A DNA stretch of 17,805 nucleotides, taken from positions 1 through 17,805 of the forward strand of contig JBHLPR010000038.1 of NCBI GenBank assembly GCA_048939245.1. Reading direction: 5' to 3'. Under the pieces are notes generated by a model. It was given only the letters and a program-made list of their open reading frames with translations. It made no database searches and was not told the DNA's origin. This DNA is from Promethearchaeota archaeon. GTDB taxonomy: Archaea > Asgardarchaeota > Hermodarchaeia > Hermodarchaeales > Hermodarchaeaceae. The translations under genes and the position numbers were made by a program. Shown here piece by piece: positions 19 through 17,770 of this stretch; position 1 is the stretch's first letter; every line of letters starts with the position of its first letter.

Positions 19-150
19 CTGGCGTTGGATTGGCTGGTGTATCAGCACCGAAATGTGAATTGTGGTTGGGCGAGATTCCAGATATGGTTGAGCCCCGAGT
101 TACGTTCTCTTTTGGGAAGCCTGATTTGATTTAGATATGTGGTACCGAAA

Positions 151-654
151 ATGAGCTACGATCGAGAGCCTGTTGAGGCAACAGTCGCAGATTTGCGACC
201 CCGTATGAAAAGTTTGAACATCACCTTCAAGGTCGTCGAAAAAGGTGAAGAACGTGAAGTCACCTCCCGTCGTGACGGCGAAACGCATCGCGTATTAGAT
301 GCCGTGGCCGGCGACTCCACGGGCACCGTGGTCTTAAGTCTGTGGGACGACATGATTGACACAGTAGAAGCAGAAAAAAGCTACCGACTAGAAAATGGTT
401 ATACCAGCTTATTCCAAGGACATCTCCGATTAAACATCGGACGTTACGGTGAACTCAAAGACGCAGAAACTGAAGTTGACGAAATCGATATGGATAATGA
501 CCTCTCTGCCGCTGAACACGAACGCCCACCTCGTCGCTCCTACGGCGGTTACAGCCGTCGAAGCTATGGCGGTGGTGGAGGAGGCAGAGACTATCGTCGC
601 GGTGGCGGCGGCTCACGGCGTGGTAGCCGAGACCGCGGACGCAGCCGTTACTAA
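151..654 (+). CDS. ssb: Single-stranded DNA-binding protein (crenarchaeal-type single OB fold) with acidic linker and Gly/Arg/Ser/Tyr-rich C-terminal tail
   Basis: OB-fold motifs VADLRP..LNITFKV, HRVLDAVAGDSTGTVVLSLWDD, LENGYTSLFQGHLRLNIGRYG. Tail RRSYGGYSRRSYGGGGGGRDYRRGGGGSRRGSRDRGRSRY. ATG at 151 preferred over GTG at 139. Confidence 0.92.
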   Translation: MSYDREPVEATVADLRPRMKSLNITFKVVEKGEEREVTSRRDGETHRVLDAVAGDSTGTVVLSLWDDMIDTVEAEKSYRLENGYTSLFQGHLRLNIGRYGELKDAETEVDEIDMDNDLSAAEHERPPRRSYGGYSRRSYGGGGGGRDYRRGGGGSRRGSRDRGRSRY

Positions 655-672
655 AACCAAATTAATGCAAAC

Positions 673-721
673 GGAGGTTCAGCCACAATAATCTGGCCTA
701 GCCTCCAATTTCTTCTTTTTT
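673..721 (+). terminator. Hairpin plus U-tract terminator after ssb
   Basis: Imperfect stem GGAGGTTCAGCCA...TGGCCTAGCCTCC (673-706) followed by AATTTCTTCTTTTTT. Confidence 0.6.
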
Positions 722-750
722 AGAATTTACTTGTAGACTAAGATCAATAT

Positions 751-1221
751 TTAGTCAGATTTTCGGTCAATTCGTGACCATTTAAACCCACGGCTCCGGC
801 GAACTGGCACTTCTCGCCGAGTGTTGGATTTTTTATGACCCTTCGAACGAGTGGATGCAGGATGCGTTTTTGCTGATAGATTTCGCTTGGTATTTACTTC
901 AGGTATAGTATGCTCAGATAGCTCGAGTTTTCCATTTCGTCCTAAGCTTACTTGAATATGGCCTTGAAACAGTCCTGATTGTCCGTTGACAAGTCGGAAA
1001 GCTTTCCCGTCTTCGACTTGTGAAATCTCATCATCCCAGAGTGTAAGGCGCATCAATCCAGTTTCATCCCCGATGAGGATATCTGCAACACGGTGGTTCG
1101 AATCGTCATGTCGGCTTTTCACTTTGCGAACGGCTTCAGTCTTGATGACCTGAAAATGTATCGTAATTCCTCGTTGAAAGGGTTGAAGGTTTTCTAATTT
1201 CTGTGTACTTGCATTTGGCAC
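751..1221 (-). CDS. Second SSB-like single OB-fold paralog with basic K/R-rich tail
   Basis: LENLQP..ITIHFQV, HRVADILIGDETGLMRLTLWDD, LVNGQSGLFQGHIQVSLGRNG align with the first SSB. GTG start. Confidence 0.88.
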   Translation of the reverse strand: MPNASTQKLENLQPFQRGITIHFQVIKTEAVRKVKSRHDDSNHRVADILIGDETGLMRLTLWDDEISQVEDGKAFRLVNGQSGLFQGHIQVSLGRNGKLELSEHTIPEVNTKRNLSAKTHPASTRSKGHKKSNTRREVPVRRSRGFKWSRIDRKSD

Positions 1222-6055: not shown

Positions 6056-6832
6056 CTATGGTCCTACTTTCTTCGGTCGGAGAAGAAGAACAAGACCGAG
6101 AATGAGGATGATAACCGCGACACCAATAATGGCGAAGGCAATGGTTTCAATTGGTATAATTCTAAGACCACCATTTTCATGATTTACACCATTTCCACCA
6201 TTTTCGACAGGTCTTCTATCAACTGTGTCACTGACGACAATTTCATCGATCCATGTCCCTGGCTCGCACTCGACGTAAAAGTATTCTGAAGACGAAAGAG
6301 TAGTATCTTGAGTATACATAACAAGGTCATCTTCAATCCAGATGTGAATAAAGTCGGTTTCATTACGTGTTATCACAACGGATACCGACCCCTCCAGATA
6401 CTCATAGCTTCGTCGTAACGGACGAAAGGCCCCGCCACTTTGTCGGATTATACGCCAGCAACCTTCAGTAGGATCACGGACAAAGGCGTACCCATTATCT
6501 GGCCAATTAGAAGACGGATTGATATCTGAGGCCATGAAGAAGATGATAATACGATCAGTAAAACCTCCCGTCGCATCGGGGTTGCATTCGAAACTCCATG
6601 TGCCCATTGCCACTGAGCTGCCATAAGTGACATCGTTGAAGGACTCATCACCAGAACCTTCGAGCCGATTGCCAGCGCAGGTGAAAGCACCACGAAGTAT
6701 GGTCCAACCAGGTGGGAGCACTCCTCCATCAAAATTTTCAGACCATGGTTGCGCCAGAGACGGCGAAATAGTGGCTAGGCTAAGAATGCCCAGCAGGACT
6801 CCAAGAGCTACAATTTTCCATTTCAACTTCAT
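6056..6832 (-). CDS. Secreted, C-terminally anchored protein with probable beta-sandwich (concanavalin/lectin-like) domain
   Basis: Signal peptide MKLKWKIVALGVLLGILSLA, WSENFDGG..GWTI, GTWSFE, IDEIVVSD, low-complexity linker, TM helix and RPKK. The fold is inferred. Confidence 0.75.
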   Translation of the reverse strand: MKLKWKIVALGVLLGILSLATISPSLAQPWSENFDGGVLPPGWTILRGAFTCAGNRLEGSGDESFNDVTYGSSVAMGTWSFECNPDATGGFTDRIIIFFMASDINPSSNWPDNGYAFVRDPTEGCWRIIRQSGGAFRPLRRSYEYLEGSVSVVITRNETDFIHIWIEDDLVMYTQDTTLSSSEYFYVECEPGTWIDEIVVSDTVDRRPVENGGNGVNHENGGLRIIPIETIAFAIIGVAVIILILGLVLLLRPKKVGP

Positions 6833-8149: not shown

Positions 8150-8287
8150 TATTCACCGTTAGGTAATAAATATCCAATAGTTGACCCACATACCAAGTAT
8201 TGTAAATCAGAAGATCAATGTCGCTCACACTGACAACCCCCAAAAGAAGAGAGATAGAGAAGACAAGCCGCCTAAACAATCGGCCAC

Positions 8288-8347
8288 TTATAAGCAGTAA
8301 TAGAAAACACAACCACCTTGCTCTCAGTATTCCTTTATCGTGACTCA
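8288..8347 (-). repeat. Actin 3'-end fragment, copy A (degenerate): *VTIKEY*EQGGCVFYYCL*
   Basis: 20 codons in exact register with copy B, with two internal TGA. Followed after 12 nt by TTAGGCGGC and a pyrimidine tract. Confidence 0.8.
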
Positions 8348-8418
8348 CAATCGCTCACCACCTCCAGACCAAGAGCATCAACCACGGTACATGGCGATTT
8401 TGAGCCATGCGAGAGATA

Positions 8419-9261
8419 TTAGGGTGTGAATTGGACGTGAACAAAGGATGCGATATTAAACCAGTCACTTAGCCGCATCATCATACGGGTTTTCCATTTC
8501 CATTTGGGATTCTTTGTGATGCGACTAAACATGGGAAACCAATCAAGGACTCGTAATCGTTGTGACCAGTGAGGAATTTGTTTCCGTGCGTTGCCCAATC
8601 CAAAGTGGAGGTCAATTCCTTCGATGCCATATGACTGAAAGCGTCGCCTAAGCAGACGAAGCCCCAACCTTGAGGGCATATCAAAGATGAGTTCGCCGTG
8701 TGGTAATTGAAGCGCCATCGTCTCAAGAAGCCTAGTCACTTCGTTTTCAGGGAAATAATGAAACAGCCCCCCAGCAAAACAGAGTATACCTTTCTCCGGA
8801 ATCACCCGAATGTCGTTCAGCCACGATGTATCAAACACCGACTTGGCGAGGTAAATATTCCGATTAGATTCTGGCAGTAGCTGCCGACGATATGCGATTG
8901 CCTCCGGCAAATCCAAATCATACCATAGGATGCGCCCATTATCGACTCGAAAAAAGGTTGTATCCAATCCACACCCGAGATTCACAATAGTTGTCGCTGG
9001 ATGGTCTTCGAGAAACCGTTTGATCACCTCATCAAAGGTTCGAGCGCGTATCAAAAATGTGAGTCCATAAAATTCGTCAACAAACTGCTCCATAGCGTCA
9101 AATTCTGCCTTGGCGTCTGGGTGTATTGCTTTCACCTGCTTAATTAGTTGAACCGATTGCTCATCGGCTAACAATTCCGGGTATTGCTGACTGTAGGTTG
9201 CCCTTGCCCATAAGGGACCTATCATCGTTGATTCAAGCTTTACCCTAACCTTCTCGGACAA
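8419..9261 (-). CDS. Class I SAM-dependent methyltransferase, LCM/TcmP-like
   Basis: TMIGPLWARA, IRARTFD, IVNLGCGLDT.F.R.DNG, WYDLDLPE, GGLFHYF, ELIFD. TTG start with GGAG upstream. Confidence 0.9.
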   Translation of the reverse strand: MSEKVRVKLESTMIGPLWARATYSQQYPELLADEQSVQLIKQVKAIHPDAKAEFDAMEQFVDEFYGLTFLIRARTFDEVIKRFLEDHPATTIVNLGCGLDTTFFRVDNGRILWYDLDLPEAIAYRRQLLPESNRNIYLAKSVFDTSWLNDIRVIPEKGILCFAGGLFHYFPENEVTRLLETMALQLPHGELIFDMPSRLGLRLLRRRFQSYGIEGIDLHFGLGNARKQIPHWSQRLRVLDWFPMFSRITKNPKWKWKTRMMMRLSDWFNIASFVHVQFTP

Positions 9262-9398
9262 AGAAAAAGTCTCCGTTCATTTTGTAACCCAATACCGTGG
9301 TAGTTTCTAACATATCAATTTAAAATTATTACAACGGCATAGTAGCCTATACATATCTAAGTTAGAGTTAAAGAGGAAGAGCTCATTAGTATGCGAAC

Positions 9399-10376
9399 AT
9401 GTTAGTATTATTAACTGGCGCCTTTGGAAATATTGGAGAAAGTACGCTGTTAGCTCTGTTCAAGCAGAACCACCAGATTCGATGCTTTGATTTGCAAACA
9501 ACACAAAACGAAAAAACTGCCAAGAGTTTGCAAAAGTATGGCGATTTTGAAACAGTTTGGGGTGATGTCCGAGATGTCGACACGACAAGGAACATCGTTG
9601 AGGGCGTCGACTGCATCATTCATTTAGCGGCAATCCTTCCACCTCAAAGTGAAAGAGACCCCGATTTCACCACGACCGTGAATGTTGGGGGAACATTACA
9701 TCTAATCGAAGCGGCAGAAGCGTTGCCAGTAAAACCCAAATTCGTCTATGCTAGTTCCATATCCGTTTTGGGGCCCTGCATGCATCTCCCTCCACCACGA
9801 ACAGCGGATGACCCCCTTCACCCTACTGACACCTATACCACCACGAAAGTCAAATGCGAAGAAGCGCTTCGGGCCAGTTCACTGCCTTGGACCATCCTCC
9901 GTCTAGTCGCGGTCCCCGGCTTACGCATCAGTGGCGAAGCTGACCCGATGTTATTCGAAATTCCCCTCGACCAACGCATCGAATTTGTCCATACCCGCGA
10001 TGTCGGCACCGCCTTTGCCCATGCAGTCACTGCCAAGACCTTGAACAAAGTCCTTCTCATTGGAGGCGGTAAATCCAGCCAGATGCTTCAACGCGAATTC
10101 ATTGCTAAAATCCTCAACGCCATGGGAGTCGGAATGCTACCAGAGTCCGCCTTTCGCGTTGCAACCAAGCCTGAAGAGTGGTACTACACTGATTGGGTAG
10201 ACACAACCGAATCCCAACAGCTCCTACAATACCAACACCACACCTACGACCAATACATTGACGACCTCAAACGCACCATCGGATTCAAACGCTACCTCGG
10301 CCGACTCTTCCGAGGCTCAGCCCAAAAACGCCTCCTCGCCCAATCCCCCTACTATCAAGAATCGAAGGATCATTAA
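9399..10376 (+). CDS. NAD(P)-dependent epimerase/dehydratase (extended SDR)
   Basis: TGAFGNIG Rossmann motif, GDV, IIHLAA, VNVGGT, YASS, catalytic YTTTK, ILRL, FVHTRDV. Confidence 0.92.
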   Translation: MLVLLTGAFGNIGESTLLALFKQNHQIRCFDLQTTQNEKTAKSLQKYGDFETVWGDVRDVDTTRNIVEGVDCIIHLAAILPPQSERDPDFTTTVNVGGTLHLIEAAEALPVKPKFVYASSISVLGPCMHLPPPRTADDPLHPTDTYTTTKVKCEEALRASSLPWTILRLVAVPGLRISGEADPMLFEIPLDQRIEFVHTRDVGTAFAHAVTAKTLNKVLLIGGGKSSQMLQREFIAKILNAMGVGMLPESAFRVATKPEEWYYTDWVDTTESQQLLQYQHHTYDQYIDDLKRTIGFKRYLGRLFRGSAQKRLLAQSPYYQESKDH

Positions 10377-10393
10377 GCTTCACTTATTCAAAT

Positions 10394-10437
10394 AGAAAAG
10401 AGAGCAGTGGAGAGGATGCAACCCTGTTTCTCCGCCG
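10394..10437 (-). terminator. Probable hairpin plus pyrimidine-tract terminator between convergent genes
   Basis: Minus strand GCGGAGA...TCTCCAC stem followed by TCTCTTTTCT. Confidence 0.4.
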
Positions 10438-10459
10438 TGATTGTAAAGTTTCATTTGAA

Positions 10460-10726
10460 CTATCTATTTCCCTGCCACTTTCTGTATAGTAAGCTACAGC
10501 AATAGAAAATGCCGAAGATACCGACCACTAGAATGATAATGCCCAAAATTTGAAGCATCAACCCTATGGGCTCTTGATACCAGTAGATCAAAAAATAACC
10601 CTGAAATACTAGTGAGCTCCCGCCACAACCCACTACGATACCACCAATCAAGGAAACAACCAGTAGCACGATCATTATTCCGCATCTATCCCCTGTTTCA
10701 TCATTCCTGTACCCCATGAAACCCAC
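10460..10726 (-). CDS. Small membrane protein (2 TM helices)
   Basis: Two long hydrophobic segments and a basic C-terminus. The start codon is uncertain. Confidence 0.6.
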   Translation of the reverse strand: MGFMGYRNDETGDRCGIMIVLLVVSLIGGIVVGCGGSSLVFQGYFLIYWYQEPIGLMLQILGIIILVVGIFGIFYCCSLLYRKWQGNR

Positions 10727-10912
10727 CCTTTTAGTAAGCAGTCATTTTGCAGTTCTTAGGCAAGCCCAACACACCCAGTCCTACTACACCCCCGCCTAAA
10801 TATCATTCGAGAAATCGCGATGAATTACATGAACAAGTGAATTACAAAATCCACTCAAACGAAATAATAAAAAACAGGGAGGAAAAGCCGTCCATACGAT
10901 AGTTTTCGCCAG

Positions 10913-10972
10913 CTAGAAGCAGCGATGGATGACCCCAGCACCCTGCTCCAGATATTCCTTTTTGGTTACCCA
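10913..10972 (-). repeat. Actin 3'-end fragment, copy B (intact): WVTKKEYLEQGAGVIHRCF*
   Basis: 10 of 19 residues identical to the eukaryotic actin C-terminus [20 protein letters not shown], ending at a stop at the equivalent position. Followed by GGACGGCTTTTCCTCCC and a T-tract. Confidence 0.9.
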
Positions 10973-11086
10973 AATTGATACAACTCGGATAAAGGCAGAC
11001 ACTACTGCCGAGTGTAGGGAAGAATCTACCGACCACAGAAGAAAGAATATTAATAATTCACAGACCATACTTCAACATTGATTATA

Positions 11087-11374
11087 ATGACAAAAAAACT
11101 AAAAAACCCGAAAGGAAAGCTCACAGGTCCCGCCAGCGCCATTATCTTAATTGAAGTCTTACCAAAAGAACACCTCAACGTTCTACAGGTCGTCAAAGCC
11201 GACCTCGAAAAAATCGAAGGCATCAAAGACATCCACGGCATCTTTGGCACCTGGGACCTCTCAGCCATCCTAGAAGAGGCATCCTTCGAGGACCTCAAAA
11301 CCAAAGTCATTGACGAAATACGCGCCGTTCCCGGCGTCGGGAAAACTCAAACACTCCTTAGATTCCCTCTATAA
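11087..11374 (+). CDS. Stand-alone Lrp/AsnC ligand-binding (RAM) domain protein
   Basis: AIILIEV, KIEGIKDIHGIFGTWDL, IDEIRAVPGVGKTQTL. ATG at 11087 (TTG at 11078 is an alternative). Confidence 0.88.
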   Translation: MTKKLKNPKGKLTGPASAIILIEVLPKEHLNVLQVVKADLEKIEGIKDIHGIFGTWDLSAILEEASFEDLKTKVIDEIRAVPGVGKTQTLLRFPL

Positions 11375-11450
11375 GGTATAATGAGCGCCGTATTTGCACC
11401 ACCCACCACAACCATAAAACCTCACCCCCCACTCACCAAACAAAAAACGC

Positions 11451-11484
11451 AAAAAAAGAGAGAGCGGGGGAGGCACAGCATCCC
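11451..11484 (-). terminator. Hairpin plus U-tract terminator after 11489..11806
   Basis: Minus strand GGGATGC-TGT-GCCTCCC then CCGCTCTCTCTTTTTTT. Confidence 0.6.
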
Positions 11485-11488
11485 AAAA

Positions 11489-11806
11489 TTATTTGAGGTC
11501 ACTCACATCAATGCTAGGTCGGAGTAACCGAATGCTGATATCATCGAGAAGGCCGGAAGCAATAGCCATCAGTTTTTGCACTTCCTCGTGTCCATAGAAC
11601 TTTGCGAATTTCTCCATGCTCTCAAAGGGGAACCAATACATGATTCGTCCAGTATTGTCTGCCCACAACGTTACGTCAGGACTAATCAAGCCCTTTTTCG
11701 TCCATTCCTCTGCTTTTTCAGCCACCTTCTTTTGAAGATCCAACAGTTGTTTCCCGCGAGCCTCATCCTTAGGTGAACGATACTCAACACACAACACGCA
11801 TTTCAT
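11489..11806 (-). CDS. Hypothetical protein (possible ferredoxin-like alpha+beta barrel)
   Basis: Strong GGAGGTGA RBS (11812-11819) supports the ATG at 11806 rather than 11851. Alternating strand/helix pattern with FESMEKFAKF. Confidence 0.75.
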   Translation of the reverse strand: MKCVLCVEYRSPKDEARGKQLLDLQKKVAEKAEEWTKKGLISPDVTLWADNTGRIMYWFPFESMEKFAKFYGHEEVQKLMAIASGLLDDISIRLLRPSIDVSDLK

Positions 11807-12002
11807 TGATCTCACCTCCATTCCAGTGATCATCGAAGTGGAAAAGCCCATGTAGGTAAATTGACTGATTCCATTCTGCCCTCCAGAGGCTAGCCACCCT
11901 TTAGATGCATACAGAATATATACCCGAGGTTTTACGAATTTTCACCCGACAAAAATCCAGAGGCTATTGAATCCAAGACACAGGATTTTATTAAACCAAC
12001 CA

Positions 12003-12040
12003 CTAGGGAAGCTGCGATGGATTACGCCAGTACCCTCTTT
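12003..12040 (-). repeat. Actin 3'-end fragment, copy C (short, degenerate): KEGTGVIHRSF, then CC, then TAG
   Basis: GAG GGT ACT GGC GTA ATC CAT CGC AGC TTC aligns with copy B. The stop is displaced by 2 nt and the 5' part is eroded. Confidence 0.72.
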
Positions 12041-12146
12041 TCCTGAATTAATTCACCATATTTACACCCAGACGACAAACCTTCATTTCAGAATGTGAAA
12101 CTCCTCTCAACGTTGCCTAACAGGTTACTGAGAATTAAATTAGATT

Positions 12147-13352
12147 TCAAATGCGAATTTCTTCGCCTACTCTCACATGACGATAGGCGGCCCCAAAGTG
12201 TTCATGAAACATTCTGAGACTGAGTGGCGAACTATCATGTGGTGATAAGGCCACAATCTTGGGTTGTTGTTGTTTCAAGAGCGCAATATTTGCTTGCAGC
12301 TCTTTTGTTGTAATAGGATTCCATGGTTCTTTTCCTGTGCCAAAATACGAATAGGGGCTCATTCCTGCAATTTCAATTGGACCGCCTTCAACGGGGTAAT
12401 GGAGTCCGCCAATTATACCATAAAGTGGTACATCAAATAACGCTGCAACCCGGTCAAGAAGCTTAGGTAAGGTTTGATGACCACAGCCTACAATTAATAC
12501 GATGCCTTTCTTTTCCACATTAACGACCAGTGCCTGTTCTGGTTCTAGCCCGGAGCCTAAGAAAAACATGGCATTCGCGATACACCCACTGGTCGTCACA
12601 CCGGGTCCGATAACTCGTGGATCTTTTGTATGGATTGGCTTTATTCCAGGATACTTCATCGGCACAGGAGTGTAGACTTTGATATGTGATAAATCAAGTT
12701 GTGTGCCACTCAACGAAAACGTCATCTTTTCTGTCCATTTGCTTCCTCCAGTATGATCCCCATGATTGTGGGAAATCACAATCGTGTCAATGTTACTCAC
12801 TTCAATATCCAACTGCTTCATATTCTGTAAGAGTGGTGACGGGTCTTCTTGTCTTGGATTCAATCCCAAATCAAACAGAATCGTGTTCTCATCTGTGCGG
12901 ACCAGATACGATACCCCTAGTTCTTTCCGCAAATTATCCCGACGTGCATGCCAATCTATCAACGGTAAAATCGATAGATGCTTGGTGGTGCCGACATCTG
13001 TTAACTTAGAATACGTGCTCTGCTTCCACTCCTCCAATGCTCTCTGTTTCCCCTGACGAAACTTCTTCAATTCTTTCTCTAGCTTCTTATCTTCAAACAG
13101 ATACTGCAGTCTGACCTTCAGTCCGGCTTCAGTTAAGGGGGCCAACAACTGTTTTATAACAACCTCAGGTGGAACGATGGTTTCACCAAGCTCAAAGACC
13201 ATACAACTCGTAATACCATGCACTGGTGCAGGCATCGACGATGGCGGAACAACGAATTTAACATCCTTACTCTTAGACACGCGATCCTTCCACGATTCAA
13301 TATACTCCTCCAAATCCTCTAGAGGAACTTCAACAAACACAATAAACCGCAT
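12147..13352 (-). CDS. Metallo-beta-lactamase-fold hydrolase (class II-like, MJ0301-type) with an extra ~110-aa N-terminal domain
   Basis: ELGVSYLV, ILFDLG, SHNHGDHTGG (HxHxDH), EQALVV, GCGH, GGLH, PH motifs. ATG at 13352. Confidence 0.88.
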   Translation of the reverse strand: MRFIVFVEVPLEDLEEYIESWKDRVSKSKDVKFVVPPSSMPAPVHGITSCMVFELGETIVPPEVVIKQLLAPLTEAGLKVRLQYLFEDKKLEKELKKFRQGKQRALEEWKQSTYSKLTDVGTTKHLSILPLIDWHARRDNLRKELGVSYLVRTDENTILFDLGLNPRQEDPSPLLQNMKQLDIEVSNIDTIVISHNHGDHTGGSKWTEKMTFSLSGTQLDLSHIKVYTPVPMKYPGIKPIHTKDPRVIGPGVTTSGCIANAMFFLGSGLEPEQALVVNVEKKGIVLIVGCGHQTLPKLLDRVAALFDVPLYGIIGGLHYPVEGGPIEIAGMSPYSYFGTGKEPWNPITTKELQANIALLKQQQPKIVALSPHDSSPLSLRMFHEHFGAAYRHVRVGEEIRI

Positions 13353-13510
13353 AACCCATCCCAACTAATCCTAACCCAAGATAGATAAAAATCCATAACC
13401 TCTAAGACATACCTCACCCCCACCAATAACAGATCTCCAGACGCCTAAATTCTAGTCAAAGGTTAATCAAGAAGAATAAGCAGAGGTAAGCCTCCTAAAA
13501 CACAGCCACG

Positions 13511-13567
13511 TCAGAAGCCGCGATGGATCAGATCAGCACCCTGTTCCATGTATTCCTTATTGGTCAT
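13511..13567 (-). repeat. Actin 3'-end fragment, copy D: MTNKEYMEQGADLIHRGF*
   Basis: In register with copy B. Followed after 12 nt by a TTAGGAGGCTTACCTC hairpin and a pyrimidine tract. Confidence 0.88.
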
Positions 13568-13580
13568 CTTATAATTCAAC

Positions 13581-13611
13581 AAAAAAGAGAAAGGGGGAGG
13601 CAAGACCTCCC
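13581..13611 (-). terminator. Hairpin plus U-tract terminator after 13643..14833
   Basis: Minus strand GGGAGG-TCTTG-CCTCCC then CCTTTCTCTTTTTT. Confidence 0.65.
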
Positions 13612-13642
13612 AGGTAACAGCTAGTTGTTCTCTAACCTTGGA

Positions 13643-14833
13643 TCAAGGTCCAAGAACAGTATTATGATAAAACTTGACATCATCGGAGCAAAGATTTAGG
13701 ATATCGACTGATTCGGGACCTCTAAGGATTATTATGTTGCAGAATACAAATCCTTGGAGGGTTATGGGCCCATTTTCAAGATATGAGTCATCCACAAGCA
13801 GCATTCCGGTTGCGCCATCAGCACATTCGATGCTATTGCGATAGATTAGGATCGTTGCTAACACAGGATCCCATTGCTCGATGTAAATTCCAACGCCTCC
13901 GAAGATGGAGGGCAGTGTACCAATTCCCTGCATCTTATTCTTTGCAATGATGCATAAAGAGTTCCCGGGATGAACTTCCATACCCCACGCGACACTGTCA
14001 AAAGTATTGTGTTGGATCTTGAGTAGAGAGTCTTTGAATACACCTAAGTCAACGATACCACAGCATATCGATTTGAAGCTACAATGCTTCACTGAGAAAA
14101 CGCCCTTGAGTTGGTTAATGTAGAGGAAGTTGGAACCGCTGATTTGGATTCCGTTTGCAGCACTGGATCCAAACCCGAAGTAGGCATCACTTAGAATTCC
14201 TTCCATTTCCAACCGGTGACAGAACAGGTTGAAGTAAGAGACTTCATCTTCAATAAGCTCCAGTCGCGATATACCTGCAACCCAGAGAGGATTAATAGAG
14301 GTAGCCGTTAGCCACTCTGCTCCAGGAATATGCCATACTTCAGATTCACCTACAACACGAATGGTCATGTCGGAGATCTTGATGTTATATGGGTGGCGTT
14401 CTGTACTCTCGGTGTCTGCATCTTGGTAGAAGAGAAACATCTGAGCAAACCCAACCTGTTGTGGACCTTCAAGGCCAAAGATTGGATCTGAGAGAAGGGG
14501 GAATGGTTGGTCTTCGGTGTTTTGGATGATGGTTTTTCCAGTCCCAGCCCCCTTGAATGTACCGTCGAAGTTCACGACAACAATTTCTTTATTCAGATAG
14601 AACGTTCCGCGACCTAATCGAACTGTACTCCCTCGATGTTCGACTGCTTCGTCAAAGGCAGCTTGTATCCTTAGCGTATCAGTGATACCAGAAGCGTCCC
14701 CAGAAGCCGATACAAAATAGGTTCGATGTCCTCGGTGAGCGACAGTGGTTCCTACATTGATGCTAGCGAGGGCTAAAAGAAAACACAGTCCGATTGCAAT
14801 TGTAATCACTTTACGAGTTTTTAATCTCAACAT
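13643..14833 (-). CDS. Secreted right-handed parallel beta-helix (pectin lyase-like) protein
   Basis: Signal peptide. TDTLRIQAAFD..TVRLGRGTFYL..GAGTGKTII cap motif. Repeated I.HN.F / I.KN / I.RN.I turns. GGAGGG RBS supports the ATG at 14833. Confidence 0.82.
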   Translation of the reverse strand: MLRLKTRKVITIAIGLCFLLALASINVGTTVAHRGHRTYFVSASGDASGITDTLRIQAAFDEAVEHRGSTVRLGRGTFYLNKEIVVVNFDGTFKGAGTGKTIIQNTEDQPFPLLSDPIFGLEGPQQVGFAQMFLFYQDADTESTERHPYNIKISDMTIRVVGESEVWHIPGAEWLTATSINPLWVAGISRLELIEDEVSYFNLFCHRLEMEGILSDAYFGFGSSAANGIQISGSNFLYINQLKGVFSVKHCSFKSICCGIVDLGVFKDSLLKIQHNTFDSVAWGMEVHPGNSLCIIAKNKMQGIGTLPSIFGGVGIYIEQWDPVLATILIYRNSIECADGATGMLLVDDSYLENGPITLQGFVFCNIIILRGPESVDILNLCSDDVKFYHNTVLGP

Positions 14834-15034
14834 TATTCCCTCCAGCTGGTCGCCCCTCCAATTGGGCAACCAGACAGAGTGGCTCAAGAATGGCTTGCCT
14901 GGGATTTCTATGCAAGTGAACCAGGTGGTTTCAAAACGGCATCAAACAGATGAAAGAGAACCCGATATTAAACTAATCAGTTGAAGAACGGAAAACGAAC
15001 GGGGTGAAGTAGACCTAAAATAGCCTTCTAAGCG

Positions 15035-15979
15035 CTAGACACCAGCGTCATCGATAAGCTCTTGCAGCCGAATAGAGCTCATTCCCACAAACTTTCTCTG
15101 CGGATACATAACCTGAGCTTCCGCCCATTGAGTAAAAGGTGCTTGTTTAACGGATTCACTGATTAGCTCAATATCGTGAAGTTTCTTTGCAGTACAAAAA
15201 TGGATTAAAGTGGGTTCATCAGCAAAAATGAAGGAATTCCAATACTCAAATGGATACTGCTCATGGAACCACTTTACAATTTCATGCGGAGGGATGCTGT
15301 CCTCTTTAAGCCCGATAAGAATCCAGAAGCTATTGACACTCCCCTTACCAAAAATGGGACGAATGGTCAGAAGAACTCCTCCGCCTTCCCGAATTTCTTT
15401 TAGTATTTGACGGACTCGACGGGGGGTTAACCCGGTCAGCGATGCAATCTCAGAAGTTGGCATTCGTGTATCTTCAATTAAACATTTGAGGACACGTAAT
15501 TGTGAATGAGTAAAGGTAACCTTTCGTCCACGGTAAACATACTTATGTTGGGGTGGTAGAGCCGTTGGGAACACAGGTTCCAATATATGCAACTTCACCT
15601 CCGTTACAGAATCGAATCCCCGGAAGAACTTCACCAATTCCACAACACCTGTGGTACCACTCACTTCACCCCCCACATCAAACACGCGAGGTCCTACTCG
15701 AGCTACTTCCAAGACCATATGATTGCTTCCAATCGCATCAATAAACTCGTCATCATGTTCAGATCCGTCGGTGGTTATCCACGCAAGAAAAAAGTCGGCA
15801 TCAAGCATTTCTAGCCTTAACTGTGGGATGAATTGTTGAATTACCCCTGATTCAATGAGCTTATCCACACGCTTCTTCACCGCTGTACTCGACATACCCA
15901 CCTGACGAGCTAGCGATCGATACGATGTTCTACAATTGCCCATTAACGTCGCGATAAGCCGTTTATCCACTAGATCCAC
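15035..15979 (-). CDS. Lrp/AsnC-type double wHTH regulator, paralog of 7157..8149
   Basis: VDLVDKRLIATLMGNCRTSYRSLARQVGMSSTAVKKRV. Shares YRG.KVTFT..QL.VL, PHEI..W..E..PFEYWN and LIHFCTAK with the paralog. GTG start after GGTGA is chosen (15988 is an alternative). Confidence 0.88.
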   Translation of the reverse strand: MDLVDKRLIATLMGNCRTSYRSLARQVGMSSTAVKKRVDKLIESGVIQQFIPQLRLEMLDADFFLAWITTDGSEHDDEFIDAIGSNHMVLEVARVGPRVFDVGGEVSGTTGVVELVKFFRGFDSVTEVKLHILEPVFPTALPPQHKYVYRGRKVTFTHSQLRVLKCLIEDTRMPTSEIASLTGLTPRRVRQILKEIREGGGVLLTIRPIFGKGSVNSFWILIGLKEDSIPPHEIVKWFHEQYPFEYWNSFIFADEPTLIHFCTAKKLHDIELISESVKQAPFTQWAEAQVMYPQRKFVGMSSIRLQELIDDAGV

Positions 15980-16144
15980 GGCAATCACCCTAAACCCATC
16001 ACTAGCAACTGTAATACTTTCATCCTGTAAATATCCATCCAATATGCAAAAATCATCTGCGATAACACACCAGCGCCATGCTCCAAATATTCTTTCTTCG
16101 TCACCCAAATGCTTCTTTAAGAACCGTCTAGAAAACATCCCCCG

Positions 16145-16786
16145 ATGACACGCTCGATTGACATCAAAATCGTAGACATCACTAGGACGCCTCAATTTGA
16201 GACACTACTCTATCGATGCCTTGCTCCAATGCCCTCAAAGAAATATCAAAACCGCGTCGACTATCTTAACAAAGCCATCCCCAACGGATTTCGAAAGAAA
16301 ATCCTCATCTTCAATAGCGTGCCGGTTGGCCAAATTGAATATGTTCCCATCGAAGCCTCAGGGTACCCCATCCACGGAAAAGAGATGATTGTCCTCCATT
16401 GCCTCTGGGTATTACGAAAAGCCCAAGGCCACCGACTCGGACAACACCTCATAGACGCTATGATCCAAGACCACCCAGAAACCAAAGCCTTCGTTACCAT
16501 CGGACTCACCAACCACTGGAGCCCCTGGCTCAAAAAACACCACCTAGAACTCTACGACTTCACATCCATCAACTCCATCAACGTCTCCCACAAAACCAAA
16601 CACATCGGCGAATGCTTTACCATCCACCTCATGTGGCGCCCAAACCCAAGAGCGAACAAGCGCCCCACCTGGAACCCCACACATCTTCTTAAAGGCATCA
16701 CCTTTTGCATGGCACACCCCCTCTACCACCCACAACACCTGCAGATGCAAGATATCCTCCAACGCTGCAAAAAAAGGAACGAGTAA
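16145..16786 (+). CDS. GNAT-family N-acetyltransferase (YoaP-like)
   Basis: PVGQIEYVP and LHCLWVLRKAQGHRLGQHLI (acetyl-CoA-binding motif A). Confidence 0.82.
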   Translation: MTRSIDIKIVDITRTPQFETLLYRCLAPMPSKKYQNRVDYLNKAIPNGFRKKILIFNSVPVGQIEYVPIEASGYPIHGKEMIVLHCLWVLRKAQGHRLGQHLIDAMIQDHPETKAFVTIGLTNHWSPWLKKHHLELYDFTSINSINVSHKTKHIGECFTIHLMWRPNPRANKRPTWNPTHLLKGITFCMAHPLYHPQHLQMQDILQRCKKRNE

Positions 16787-16817
16787 GACACCACGCCTCC
16801 TAATCAATAAAGACCGT

Positions 16818-16874
16818 TTATAAGCAACGATGAATAATGCCAGCGCCTTGTTCCATGTATTTGTTCATCACTCA
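16818..16874 (-). repeat. Actin 3'-end fragment, copy E: *VMNK-YMEQGAGIIHRCL*
   Basis: TAC ATG GAA CAA GGC GCT GGC ATT ATT CAT CGT TGC TTA TAA aligns with copies B and D. TTAGGAGGC follows after 14 nt. Confidence 0.88.
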
Positions 16875-16909: not shown

Positions 16910-17770
16910 TCACATAATCGTAACAATGTAGAAATCGTGATAGGACACAAAGAGGGGCTGTCCTAAGGAATCCACAACTACCCGTTGATAAAACCAGAAC
17001 TCGTCGTACCACCCATATGACCCCCTACCTCTCCGAATGATAGAGAGTTGCATATCAACGAAATACACATCCGTGAAATTCAACTGCAGATAGAGTGGTC
17101 CAACATAGCTGCCTAACCGCTCATATTCAAAACCAGCGTAACCAGACATTTCCCAATACCCTCCCCGCCAGAAAGATGAAGAACTAGATGAATCAAAACC
17201 ATACGGACCCCACCGTTGCACGATAAGACCATCATGGGAGGCAAAAACAACAGGCATATGATTCCCCCCAGATTCCAGCGCGGTCGCATTCAATGTCATA
17301 TTCATAGCCAGAAAATACGTACAGTTTGCCACATACGAAATTACTCGTCTACCCGGCGTAACATACGGATTGAACGTATGATTGATGGTCATATAACGAA
17401 ACAAGGTCGCATTTGACAGAAAGCTCGCTTCACTAATGGGAACTACCGAGTACTCGAGAACCCCTTGATAAAAACTCGCGTCTGAAAAATTGCTTACCCC
17501 ACCGACGGGAATCAAAGAGTACTCAAAGGTTTCTGCCATCATCAGCGCTGCAGCTTCATCCGGCGTATCGAACCAGCGACGCTCCATATACACAAACGAG
17601 CCCGGCCACTGCGTTCCAACACCCCACCACCACGCCCATAACGGAAGCAGAATAATCCCTAATACCACCACAAACACAAAACATACAGCAACAACCCACT
17701 TCCAATGAAGCTTACCTTTACCCTTTATCACCACCCAACCCACCAACACTAACCCTAACTCCCCCCTCAC
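16910..17770 (-). CDS. Hypothetical N-terminally membrane-anchored extracellular protein
   Basis: Basic patch plus TM helix, then an aromatic, beta-rich domain with several N-x-S/T sequons. The start codon is uncertain. Confidence 0.7.
   Translation of the reverse strand: MRGELGLVLVGWVVIKGKGKLHWKWVVAVCFVFVVVLGIILLPLWAWWWGVGTQWPGSFVYMERRWFDTPDEAAALMMAETFEYSLIPVGGVSNFSDASFYQGVLEYSVVPISEASFLSNATLFRYMTINHTFNPYVTPGRRVISYVANCTYFLAMNMTLNATALESGGNHMPVVFASHDGLIVQRWGPYGFDSSSSSSFWRGGYWEMSGYAGFEYERLGSYVGPLYLQLNFTDVYFVDMQLSIIRRGRGSYGWYDEFWFYQRVVVDSLGQPLFVSYHDFYIVTIM

What the first reader, a model, noticed from the sequence alone, without database searches (positions are those of the whole stretch)
8288..16874. 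The actin fragments diverge like coding alleles, not like neutrally decaying copies
Seen: many differences between copies are synonymous: Tyr TAT/TAC, Glu GAG/GAA, Gln CAG/CAA, Gly GGT/GGC, Ile ATC/ATT, Arg CGC/CGT, Val GTC/GTA/GTT, Thr ACC/ACG. All three stop codons are used (TAA, TAG, TGA). Superimposed decay is also present: internal stops in A and a displaced stop in C. Inference: each copy was once the working end of an actin gene in a different lineage, so the array is a record of foreign actin ends. Each integration would swap the host actin's last ~19 residues (L/M, V/I/L, F/L variants). In eukaryotic actin the C-terminus lies in the region contacted by profilin.
Basis: partly seen in the sequence, partly recalled or inferred. 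Interest (0 to 1): 0.8.

Follow-up and report, generated by a model that had tools for sequence, protein, structure and literature searches.

The report
Stack of displaced Asgard actin tails
Behind the actin gene of these Asgard archaea lies a pile of imported genes, each separated by an old end of an actin gene from a close relative; a DNA-cutting enzyme next to actin probably drives the swaps, which change the actin DNA but not the protein.

Summary
Confirmed: the window (a Hermodarchaeota MAG) holds six, not five, minus-strand copies of the actin 3' end. Against the resident gene, on another contig, differences pile up at third positions (33 of 51; 27 silent against 19-27% expected; P<1e-4). 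Across the genus the split is 202 silent to 109 replacement. Silent sites that are fixed among resident actins change no faster than first and second positions (12%), so copies are congener alleles plus neutral decay. Stubs of an older first-slot gene sit behind several copies, so those copies were once working ends. Not supported: protein swapping. All ten congener residents encode the same 19 residues, so no profilin effect follows. Best mechanism: a LAGLIDADG endonuclease behind actin cuts near ATG|TGG, the copies' 5' limit, and homologous repair from a relative installs a new tail plus cargo, pushing the old tail down. Endonuclease relatedness tracks silent alleles only at that site (rho 0.50, P=0.006, n=10). 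No cut was shown. Thorarchaeota actin and Hermodarchaeota metG have such arrays without this enzyme. The scan reported the array and first-slot enzyme earlier on another genome (e1-5395689). Closest known: fungal mitochondrial gene-end-replacing endonucleases and Dehalococcoides ssrA islands.

The parts
8243..8347 (-). Actin-tail copy (19 codons + TAA + worn terminator); most decayed, two internal stops; most distal copy
8419..10726 (.). Cargo: LCM-type methyltransferase (-), NAD epimerase (+), small membrane ORF (-); homologues lie in congeners' arrays in other orders
10868..10976 (-). Actin-tail copy, near intact (4 silent, 1 replacement: Leu for Met), TAG, distinct terminator spacer
11078..11851 (.). 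Cargo: Lrp/AsnC ligand-binding protein (+) and 120-aa ORF (-), converging on a terminator of the repeat type (11450-11485)
12003..12036 (-). Partial actin-tail copy (about codons 10-19), stop displaced by 2 nt, no terminator; the same junction occurs in G008
12147..13364 (-). Cargo: metallo-beta-lactamase-fold ORF (N-terminal part probably a separate small gene)
13466..13566 (-). Actin-tail copy (from codon 3; 5 silent, 4 replacement), TGA, worn terminator; a second repeat-type terminator lies just upstream (13595-13611)
13643..15980 (-). Cargo: 414-aa ORF without Pfam hit and a double-HTH AsnC-type regulator (start inferred near 15980)
16067..16109 (-). Left-half actin-tail copy (codons 1-14; 6 silent, 2 replacement); the same cargo junction occurs in G007 and G009
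16145..16786 (+). Cargo: GNAT acetyltransferase ending convergently in the next copy's terminator
16773..16869 (-). Actin-tail copy (from about codon 4-7; 7 silent, 2 replacement over codons 7-19), TAA; nearest to congener G005 (score 43 against 25 for the own resident)
16910..17770 (-). Cargo ORF. The array continues outside the window: C25:18806 and 20018, then C68:1253 and 1834, a 147-aa ORF, the LAGLIDADG ORF (C68:2427-3557+) and the resident actin (C68:3626-4714-)

Best explanation
The region is an accretion array anchored at the 3' end of the single bona fide actin. SHOWN: the repeat is the last ~19 codons plus stop and terminator; copies lie only downstream and on one strand; they carry congener alleles plus about 12% neutral decay; several are followed by stubs of an older first-slot gene; a double-motif LAGLIDADG ORF is first wherever the resident was assembled; the same cassettes recur in other orders and beside other repeat alleles. 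INFERRED: DNA from a congener enters; its endonuclease cuts the resident actin near ATG|TGG (Met-Trp, about 60 nt before the stop) unless the silent allele there is immune. The left end is repaired by homologous recombination on the donor's actin, with co-conversion up to about 95 codons upstream, and copies donor tail, terminator, endonuclease and cargo. The right end, nibbled by 0-30 nt, is rejoined behind it, so the old tail and old first cassette move down the array. Once present, the ~105-bp repeats act as homology for host recombination, which deletes, moves and mixes cassettes. Only protein-identical tails survive as residents, which explains the silent excess.
For: Silent excess and decay control. 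Hard 5' limit of copies at about -7 to +1 of the Trp codon with an eroded tail to +29. Old-endonuclease stubs behind displaced copies in G000, G004, G005, G008 and L110. LAGLIDADG fold, pLDDT 87, top hits I-SmaMI, I-AniI-type and I-Tsp061I; both acidic motif residues kept in all 10. First slot in G000, G004, G005, G008, G011, G014, L110, L113, L239, L240 and L242; sister-genus G016 has neither enzyme nor copies in 5.7 kb downstream. Endonuclease distance tracks silent alleles in the 24 nt centred on ATG|TGG (Mantel rho 0.50, P=0.006) but not in codons 5-19, which lie closer to it (0.01), nor upstream (0.09, 0.04, -0.23). Bulge-helix-bulge mini-introns sit at that site in G011 and 3 nt upstream in a Thorarchaeota actin. 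Resident mosaicism and raised silent divergence in the last ~95 codons. Decay rises with distance from actin, rho -0.45, P=0.0035. Precedent in PMC3630166.
Against: No cleavage is shown. Eighteen of 44 Thorarchaeota-type actin loci, and the metG tail in this genus, have the same kind of array with no such endonuclease, so the enzyme is not required, or has been lost, or another nuclease acts there. The co-variation test has n=10 related sequences, I had seen the pattern by eye first, and the unconstrained window scan gives family-wise P=0.09. Raised silent divergence near the 3' end coincides with weaker codon bias. Homologues in Borrarchaeum do not sit at duplicated gene ends. The G005 enzyme has an internal stop. 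How a new cargo gene first joins a tail is not explained. Contigs C68 and C25 are not joined in this MAG.
Confidence: 0.52

Rival explanations
1. Nuclease-independent route: small circles (tail + cargo), formed by recombination between neighbouring repeats, move between relatives and integrate by a single homologous crossover in the resident tail or in any copy. The endonuclease cassette is a selfish passenger that only keeps the first slot.
For: Thorarchaeota and metG arrays lack the enzyme. The same cargo|repeat junction is reused with different repeat alleles and neighbours. Repeat alleles are almost unlinked to cargo on either side, silent distance 0.40 and 0.49 against 0.49 at random, as expected for crossovers anywhere in the repeat. 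Near-intact copies occur far from actin.
Against: It does not explain the hard 5' limit at one codon (metG has its own limit about 72 nt before the stop), why only 2 of 2023 gene ends do this, or the enzyme-site co-variation. No circle was shown.
Confidence: 0.22
2. A site-specific integrase supplied in trans by an undetected virus or integrative element uses the actin tail as its attachment site. Copies are attR sites and cassettes are cis-mobilizable remnants, as at Dehalococcoides ssrA.
For: The architecture matches tandem accretion (PMC3146451); sharp 5' limit; cassettes reuse their junctions.
Against: No tyrosine recombinase lies in any array: G000 has one, XerA-like, on another contig, and 6 of 7 array-bearing Thorarchaeota MAGs gave none. 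No resolvase-type serine recombinase in 5 MAGs. No shared arm left of the copies, and ragged limits even in fresh copies. A fixed crossover would tie each tail to the cargo behind it, which is not seen. All genomes are incomplete MAGs.
Confidence: 0.17
3. One reading: each event installs a C-terminus of different amino-acid sequence from another lineage, altering the profilin-contact region.
For: Leu for Met occurs in a near-intact copy (10916) and in the sister genus G016; at metG the tail alleles do differ in amino acids.
Against: Ten of 10 congener residents have identical last 19 residues. Replacement changes in copies run at the decay rate and include stops. Thorarchaeota copies match their own host's residues.
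Confidence: 0.05
4. The copies are local duplicates or retro-copies of the host's own actin end that decay neutrally.
For: The common right end at the terminator and ragged left ends resemble 5'-truncated cDNA; Thorarchaeota copies are closer to their own resident (1.5 against 2.5 silent differences); three window copies are marginally nearest to own.
Against: Strong silent excess confined to sites polymorphic among residents; shared haplotypes; homology runs 35-190 nt past the terminator into the antisense gene; no reverse transcriptase found in 5 MAGs; no copies elsewhere in the genome.
Confidence: 0.03

Closest known systems
Fungal mitochondrial mobile-ORF gene-end replacement (Allomyces atp6; Glomus atp6, atp9, cox2, nad3; Ophiostoma rps3; PMC3630166, PMC4019555, PMC6279837)
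   Same: Free-standing LAGLIDADG ORF right behind an essential gene; foreign replacement C-terminus in front of it; native end displaced downstream; donors are relatives.
   Different: Archaeal chromosome and actin; the enzyme is antisense and convergent on the terminator, not co-transcribed; up to 16 displaced ends instead of one or a few; unrelated cargo genes between them, reshuffled among species; the swap is silent at protein level.
Tandem accretion of genomic islands at a gene's 3' end (Dehalococcoides ssrA islands; Streptococcus cis-mobilizable elements; PMC3146451)
   Same: Many direct repeats of one essential gene's 3' end, all downstream, separating strain-specific cargo; some islands lack any mobility gene.
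   Different: There 16 islands carry a serine-integrase module, and a 15-bp motif precedes a 20-bp repeat. Here no recombinase was found in any array, the repeat is about 105 bp with coding alleles, left limits are ragged and no shared motif precedes them.
Integrons and CALINs, also known in Asgard archaea (PMC9668308)
   Same: Array of one- to three-gene cassettes that change order between genomes; older units lie further out.
   Different: No IntI; repeats are actin coding tail plus terminator and do not fold better than shuffles; cassette genes face both ways.
Free-standing ('intronless') homing endonucleases of T4-like phages (PMC2790892, PMC13096335; abstracts read only)
   Same: An enzyme outside its target gene is mobilized with flanking DNA by break repair; SegB can also drive segmental amplification.
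   Different: Those convert or amplify existing segments; they are not described as leaving a serial record of displaced gene ends with captured cargo.

Membership tests
Gene-end-replacing homing endonuclease (fungal mORF type) | Free-standing homing-endonuclease ORF directly behind the target gene | tested here: met
   LAGLIDADG fold; first slot in all 11 loci of the genus with an assembled resident
Gene-end-replacing homing endonuclease (fungal mORF type) | Target gene stays intact with a replacement 3' end; earlier end displaced downstream | tested here: met
   Displaced tails with congener alleles and stubs of older enzymes
Gene-end-replacing homing endonuclease (fungal mORF type) | Metal-binding acidic residues in both LAGLIDADG motifs | tested here: met
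   Asp in motif 1 and Glu in motif 2 in all 10; G005 has an internal stop
Gene-end-replacing homing endonuclease (fungal mORF type) | Enzyme cleaves the target at the duplication boundary | not testable with these tools
   Indirect only: co-variation at the boundary (family-wise P=0.09) and mini-introns there
Gene-end-replacing homing endonuclease (fungal mORF type) | Enzyme present wherever the displaced ends are | tested here: not met
   Not found in Thorarchaeota actin arrays or metG arrays
Tandem genomic-island accretion (ssrA-island / CIME type) | Direct repeats of the target gene's 3' end bounding tandem cargo, all downstream | tested here: met
   (36 downstream same-strand hits, 0 reverse, 1 upstream in 0.93 Mb)
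Tandem genomic-island accretion (ssrA-island / CIME type) | Site-specific recombinase encoded in at least some islands | tested here: not met
   No PF00589 in arrays; no PF00239 in 5 MAGs; MAGs are incomplete
Tandem genomic-island accretion (ssrA-island / CIME type) | Fixed crossover point with a conserved element-side arm | tested here: inconclusive
   Hard 5' limit but ragged, no shared arm seen; tails unlinked to downstream cargo
Integron / CALIN | IntI integrase with attI | tested here: not met
   The only tyrosine recombinase in G000 is a XerA-like gene on C82
Integron / CALIN | attC sites folding as single-strand hairpins | tested here: not met
   z-scores -1.1 to +1.4 against shuffles; no Rfam match
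Retro-copies (processed pseudogenes) | Copy ends at the transcript end, matches the host allele, and a reverse transcriptase is available | tested here: not met
   Homology beyond the terminator; not host alleles; no PF00078 in 5 MAGs

The most novel reading that the evidence does not exclude
Asgard archaea use an integrase-free gene-capture platform in which an actin-targeting meganuclease and host recombination serially replace the actin tail, archive earlier tails and shuffle cargo. The Met-Trp site is contested DNA: silent recoding and bulge-helix-bulge mini-introns in the actin mRNA both protect it, in Hermodarchaeota and in Thorarchaeota.
Probability: 0.3. Interest if true: 0.88.

Novelty: new variant of a known kind. 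Interest (0 to 1): 0.72.

Why it matters
If right, a homing-endonuclease trick known from fungal mitochondria has been scaled up into a chromosomal gene-capture array at the signature eukaryote-like gene of Asgard archaea, with no integrase. It gives a testable target: one enzyme family and a 24-bp site with natural allele pairs. It shows repeated DNA exchange between species of one genus, and it warns that the last ~95 codons of these actin genes are recombinant as phylogenetic markers. It may also explain why these actin genes often break in assemblies. It does not show altered actin function. No paper found in the searches describes it (the library is partial).

Tried and rejected
Exact-pattern scans of viral contigs for Hermodarchaeota- and Thorarchaeota-type tails, and a scan for the enzyme, found nothing; this does not show absence. 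No RNA holder listed. Laid contigs gave a few short-sided joints between repeats, such as 11485 to 10914 with 34 letters on the short side; these fit other repeat copies in other strains and are not evidence of circles. IS110 transposase: one hit, in G014 only, off the array. The phylum-wide search with the last 35 residues was cut before the weak matches and was not used. Borrarchaeum homologues of the enzyme are solitary ~510-aa ORFs without duplicated gene ends. The 147-aa partner ORF has no Pfam hit and no Atlas hit above 0.83. Four JGI contigs with the enzyme had no DNA. A pseudo-palindrome around ATG|TGG in G000 is not kept in congeners, so a dif-like XerA site was dropped. Sigma-70 and terminator scans were at chance level overall. 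A Mantel test with only the 13-residue strand after motif 1 was weak. Searches failed on slips.
Full report
Setting. The window is G000:C25:1-17805 of a 2.5-Mb, 88%-complete MAG. Its actin is 94-100% identical to those of Hermodarchaeota MAGs. The bona fide actin (best solved relatives: Asgard HC1 actin and eukaryotic actins) is on contig C68, not in the window. A profile search finds the actin tail only on C68 (resident plus 2 copies) and C25 (8 copies), all on one strand. C68 and C25 are not joined here, but congeners run without a break from actin into homologues of the window's genes (G011, L110, L113).

Observation. Six copies lie in the window (see parts). The unit is the last ~19 codons, the stop, a 20-nt spacer, a hairpin and a T-run. 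Differences from the resident fall at codon positions 13/5/33, with 27 silent and 24 replacement changes against 19-27% silent expected under four transition biases (P<=5e-5). To limit ascertainment bias I also took 46 genus-wide copies by unweighted identity over fixed codons 8-19: 57/40/214, 202 silent to 109 replacement. The decisive control is. Third positions that are fixed among resident actins change in 12.2% of copies, the same as first and second positions (11.7%). The copies are therefore not under protein selection now; the silent excess sits only where living alleles differ. Copies keep the residents' linked Ile-Arg codon haplotype (P=7e-4). They are no closer to their own host than to other congeners (0.40 against 0.41). 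These genomes are kin and share cassettes, so the P values overstate independence.

All ten congener residents encode the same last 19 residues. Replacement changes in copies include stops and run at decay level, and TGA occurs once in 58 copies. That the actin C-terminus contacts profilin is established knowledge (from memory), but a silent swap cannot alter it. Donors are near relatives: Thorarchaeota copies carry their own host's residue at the variable tenth codon in 26 of 27 cases. Resident genes are recombinant (PHI-like P=2e-4), with silent divergence of 0.32-0.44 in the last ~95 codons against 0.12-0.29 upstream, not just in the last 20; codon bias is also weaker there.

Distribution. 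Eleven of 14 other genomes of the genus have copies, up to 16. Among 156 Asgard actin loci there are 36 downstream same-strand hits, none reversed and one upstream; outside Hermodarchaeota they are all of Thorarchaeota type, in 18 of 44 such loci, with the same silent excess (53 to 57). Of 2023 ORF ends in G000, only actin and metG have downstream tail copies. The metG array recurs in congeners; in G004 the resident metG is followed by the sequence that follows the distal copy elsewhere, as expected of an empty site.

Anatomy that bears on mechanism. (1) Copies start no further upstream than about the Met-Trp codons and are eroded by up to 30 nt. (2) The first ORF behind actin, antisense and convergent on the terminator, has a double LAGLIDADG fold with both acidic residues. 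It is first in all 11 loci of the genus with an assembled resident, and neither it nor copies were found in sister-genus G016. (3) Stubs of older alleles of this ORF, 35-190 nt long, follow displaced copies in five genomes, including a divergent type in G008. Those copies once stood directly behind actin. (4) Cassettes (median 1.4 kb) recur in other orders with the same cargo|repeat junction but other repeat alleles and neighbours. Repeat alleles are nearly unlinked to cargo on either side, and decay increases with distance from actin. (5) Enzyme relatedness predicts silent alleles in the 24 nt centred on ATG|TGG (rho 0.50, Mantel P=0.006) but not in the nearer codons 5-19 or upstream. The window was fixed, but I had noticed the pattern by eye, n is 10, and the free scan gives P=0.09. 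Meganucleases read 22 bp and cut the central four (PMC6294521). (6) G011, whose enzyme is only 23% identical, has a 30-nt insertion inside the ATG codon that fits a bulge-helix-bulge intron and restores the frame when removed; a Thorarchaeota actin has one 3 nt upstream. (7) No tyrosine recombinase lies in any array, and resolvase-type serine recombinase and reverse transcriptase were not found in five MAGs; IS110 gave one off-array hit.

Mechanism. Most likely (0.52) the enzyme cuts a non-immune resident near ATG|TGG, homologous repair from a congener's DNA installs donor tail, enzyme and cargo, and the nibbled right end is rejoined behind; the repeats then serve host recombination for shuffling. 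The cut, the immunity and the route of DNA entry are inferred. The main objection is that Thorarchaeota and metG arrays lack this enzyme. That leaves a nuclease-free homologous route with the enzyme as passenger (0.22) and an unseen integrase in trans (0.17). Local duplication or retro-copying (0.03) and amino-acid swapping (0.05) are largely excluded.

Comparison. It works like the mobile-ORF gene-end replacement of fungal mitochondria (PMC3630166; PMC4019555), and it is built like the tandem ssrA islands of Dehalococcoides (PMC3146451). It is not filed as a member of either: the enzyme is missing from some arrays and no integrase is found. It is not an integron (PMC9668308). The two Asgard mobile-element papers checked do not mention it. 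The scan noted the array and first-slot enzyme before on another genome (e1-5395689). I reached both points before reading that note and do not count it as support; new here are the allele tests, the enzyme stubs, the site co-variation, the Thorarchaeota and metG arrays and the mini-introns.

Verdict. Observation confirmed; interpretation partly supported; new variant of a known kind; interest 0.72.

Noticed in passing
L104/L204 (G011:C32, actin 3' part), L013:~3250, L179, L181, L184, L243 (G019, Odinarchaeota-like, 1.4 Mb), L244: Eight 28-34-nt insertions in Asgard actin genes; seven have a full 4-bp central helix between two 3-nt bulges, and removal restores the frame in all. Probably bulge-helix-bulge mini-introns in actin mRNA; five lie in the last 45 codons. 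They would make such actins look frameshifted in annotation.
   Followed up: partly
L230 (G000:C11:34573-41759, - strand); L232, L233, L234: A second, smaller array behind metG (methionyl-tRNA synthetase): 2-3 tail copies starting about 72 nt before the stop, cargo between, no endonuclease adjacent.
   Followed up: partly
L044, L053, L056, L057, L060, L082, L088, L169-L171, L174, L175, L177, L181, L182, L184, L185: Thorarchaeota-type actins with 1-3 downstream tail copies, cargo in the first slot and no enzyme of this family.
   Followed up: yes
L231:208-1491 (G000:C117): A 428-aa HTH + LAGLIDADG_3 ORF facing two paralogues of the 147-aa ORF that accompanies the actin enzyme; a related module with unknown target.
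   Followed up: partly
L214, L215, L216, L218-L222 (Borrarchaeum-type family f15): Solitary ~480-525-aa homologues of the actin enzyme, up to four matches per genome, in unrelated neighbourhoods; one is split.
   Followed up: partly
window 139-1221: Tail-to-tail pair of single-OB-fold SSB genes; homologues lie in the variable region of congeners, separated and in other orders.
   Followed up: no
window 6080-6110, 11450-11485, 13595-13611: Terminators of the same hairpin type as the actin terminator behind cargo genes, without the coding tail.
   Followed up: no
L008:3272-4183 (G000:C25:19013-19924): One cassette encodes a Ras-family small GTPase with an N-terminal zinc-ribbon-like part, a eukaryotic-signature protein moving as cargo; also present in G005 and L113.
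   Followed up: no
genus-wide copies, codon 18: The same Cys-to-Gly transversion recurs in 6 of 46 copies and in no resident, which suggests copy-to-copy spread or a shared old copy.
   Followed up: no
L113:5040-7915: Cassettes next to the enzyme carry nuclease-like cargo (BglII-type, NERD, PLD domains).
   Followed up: no
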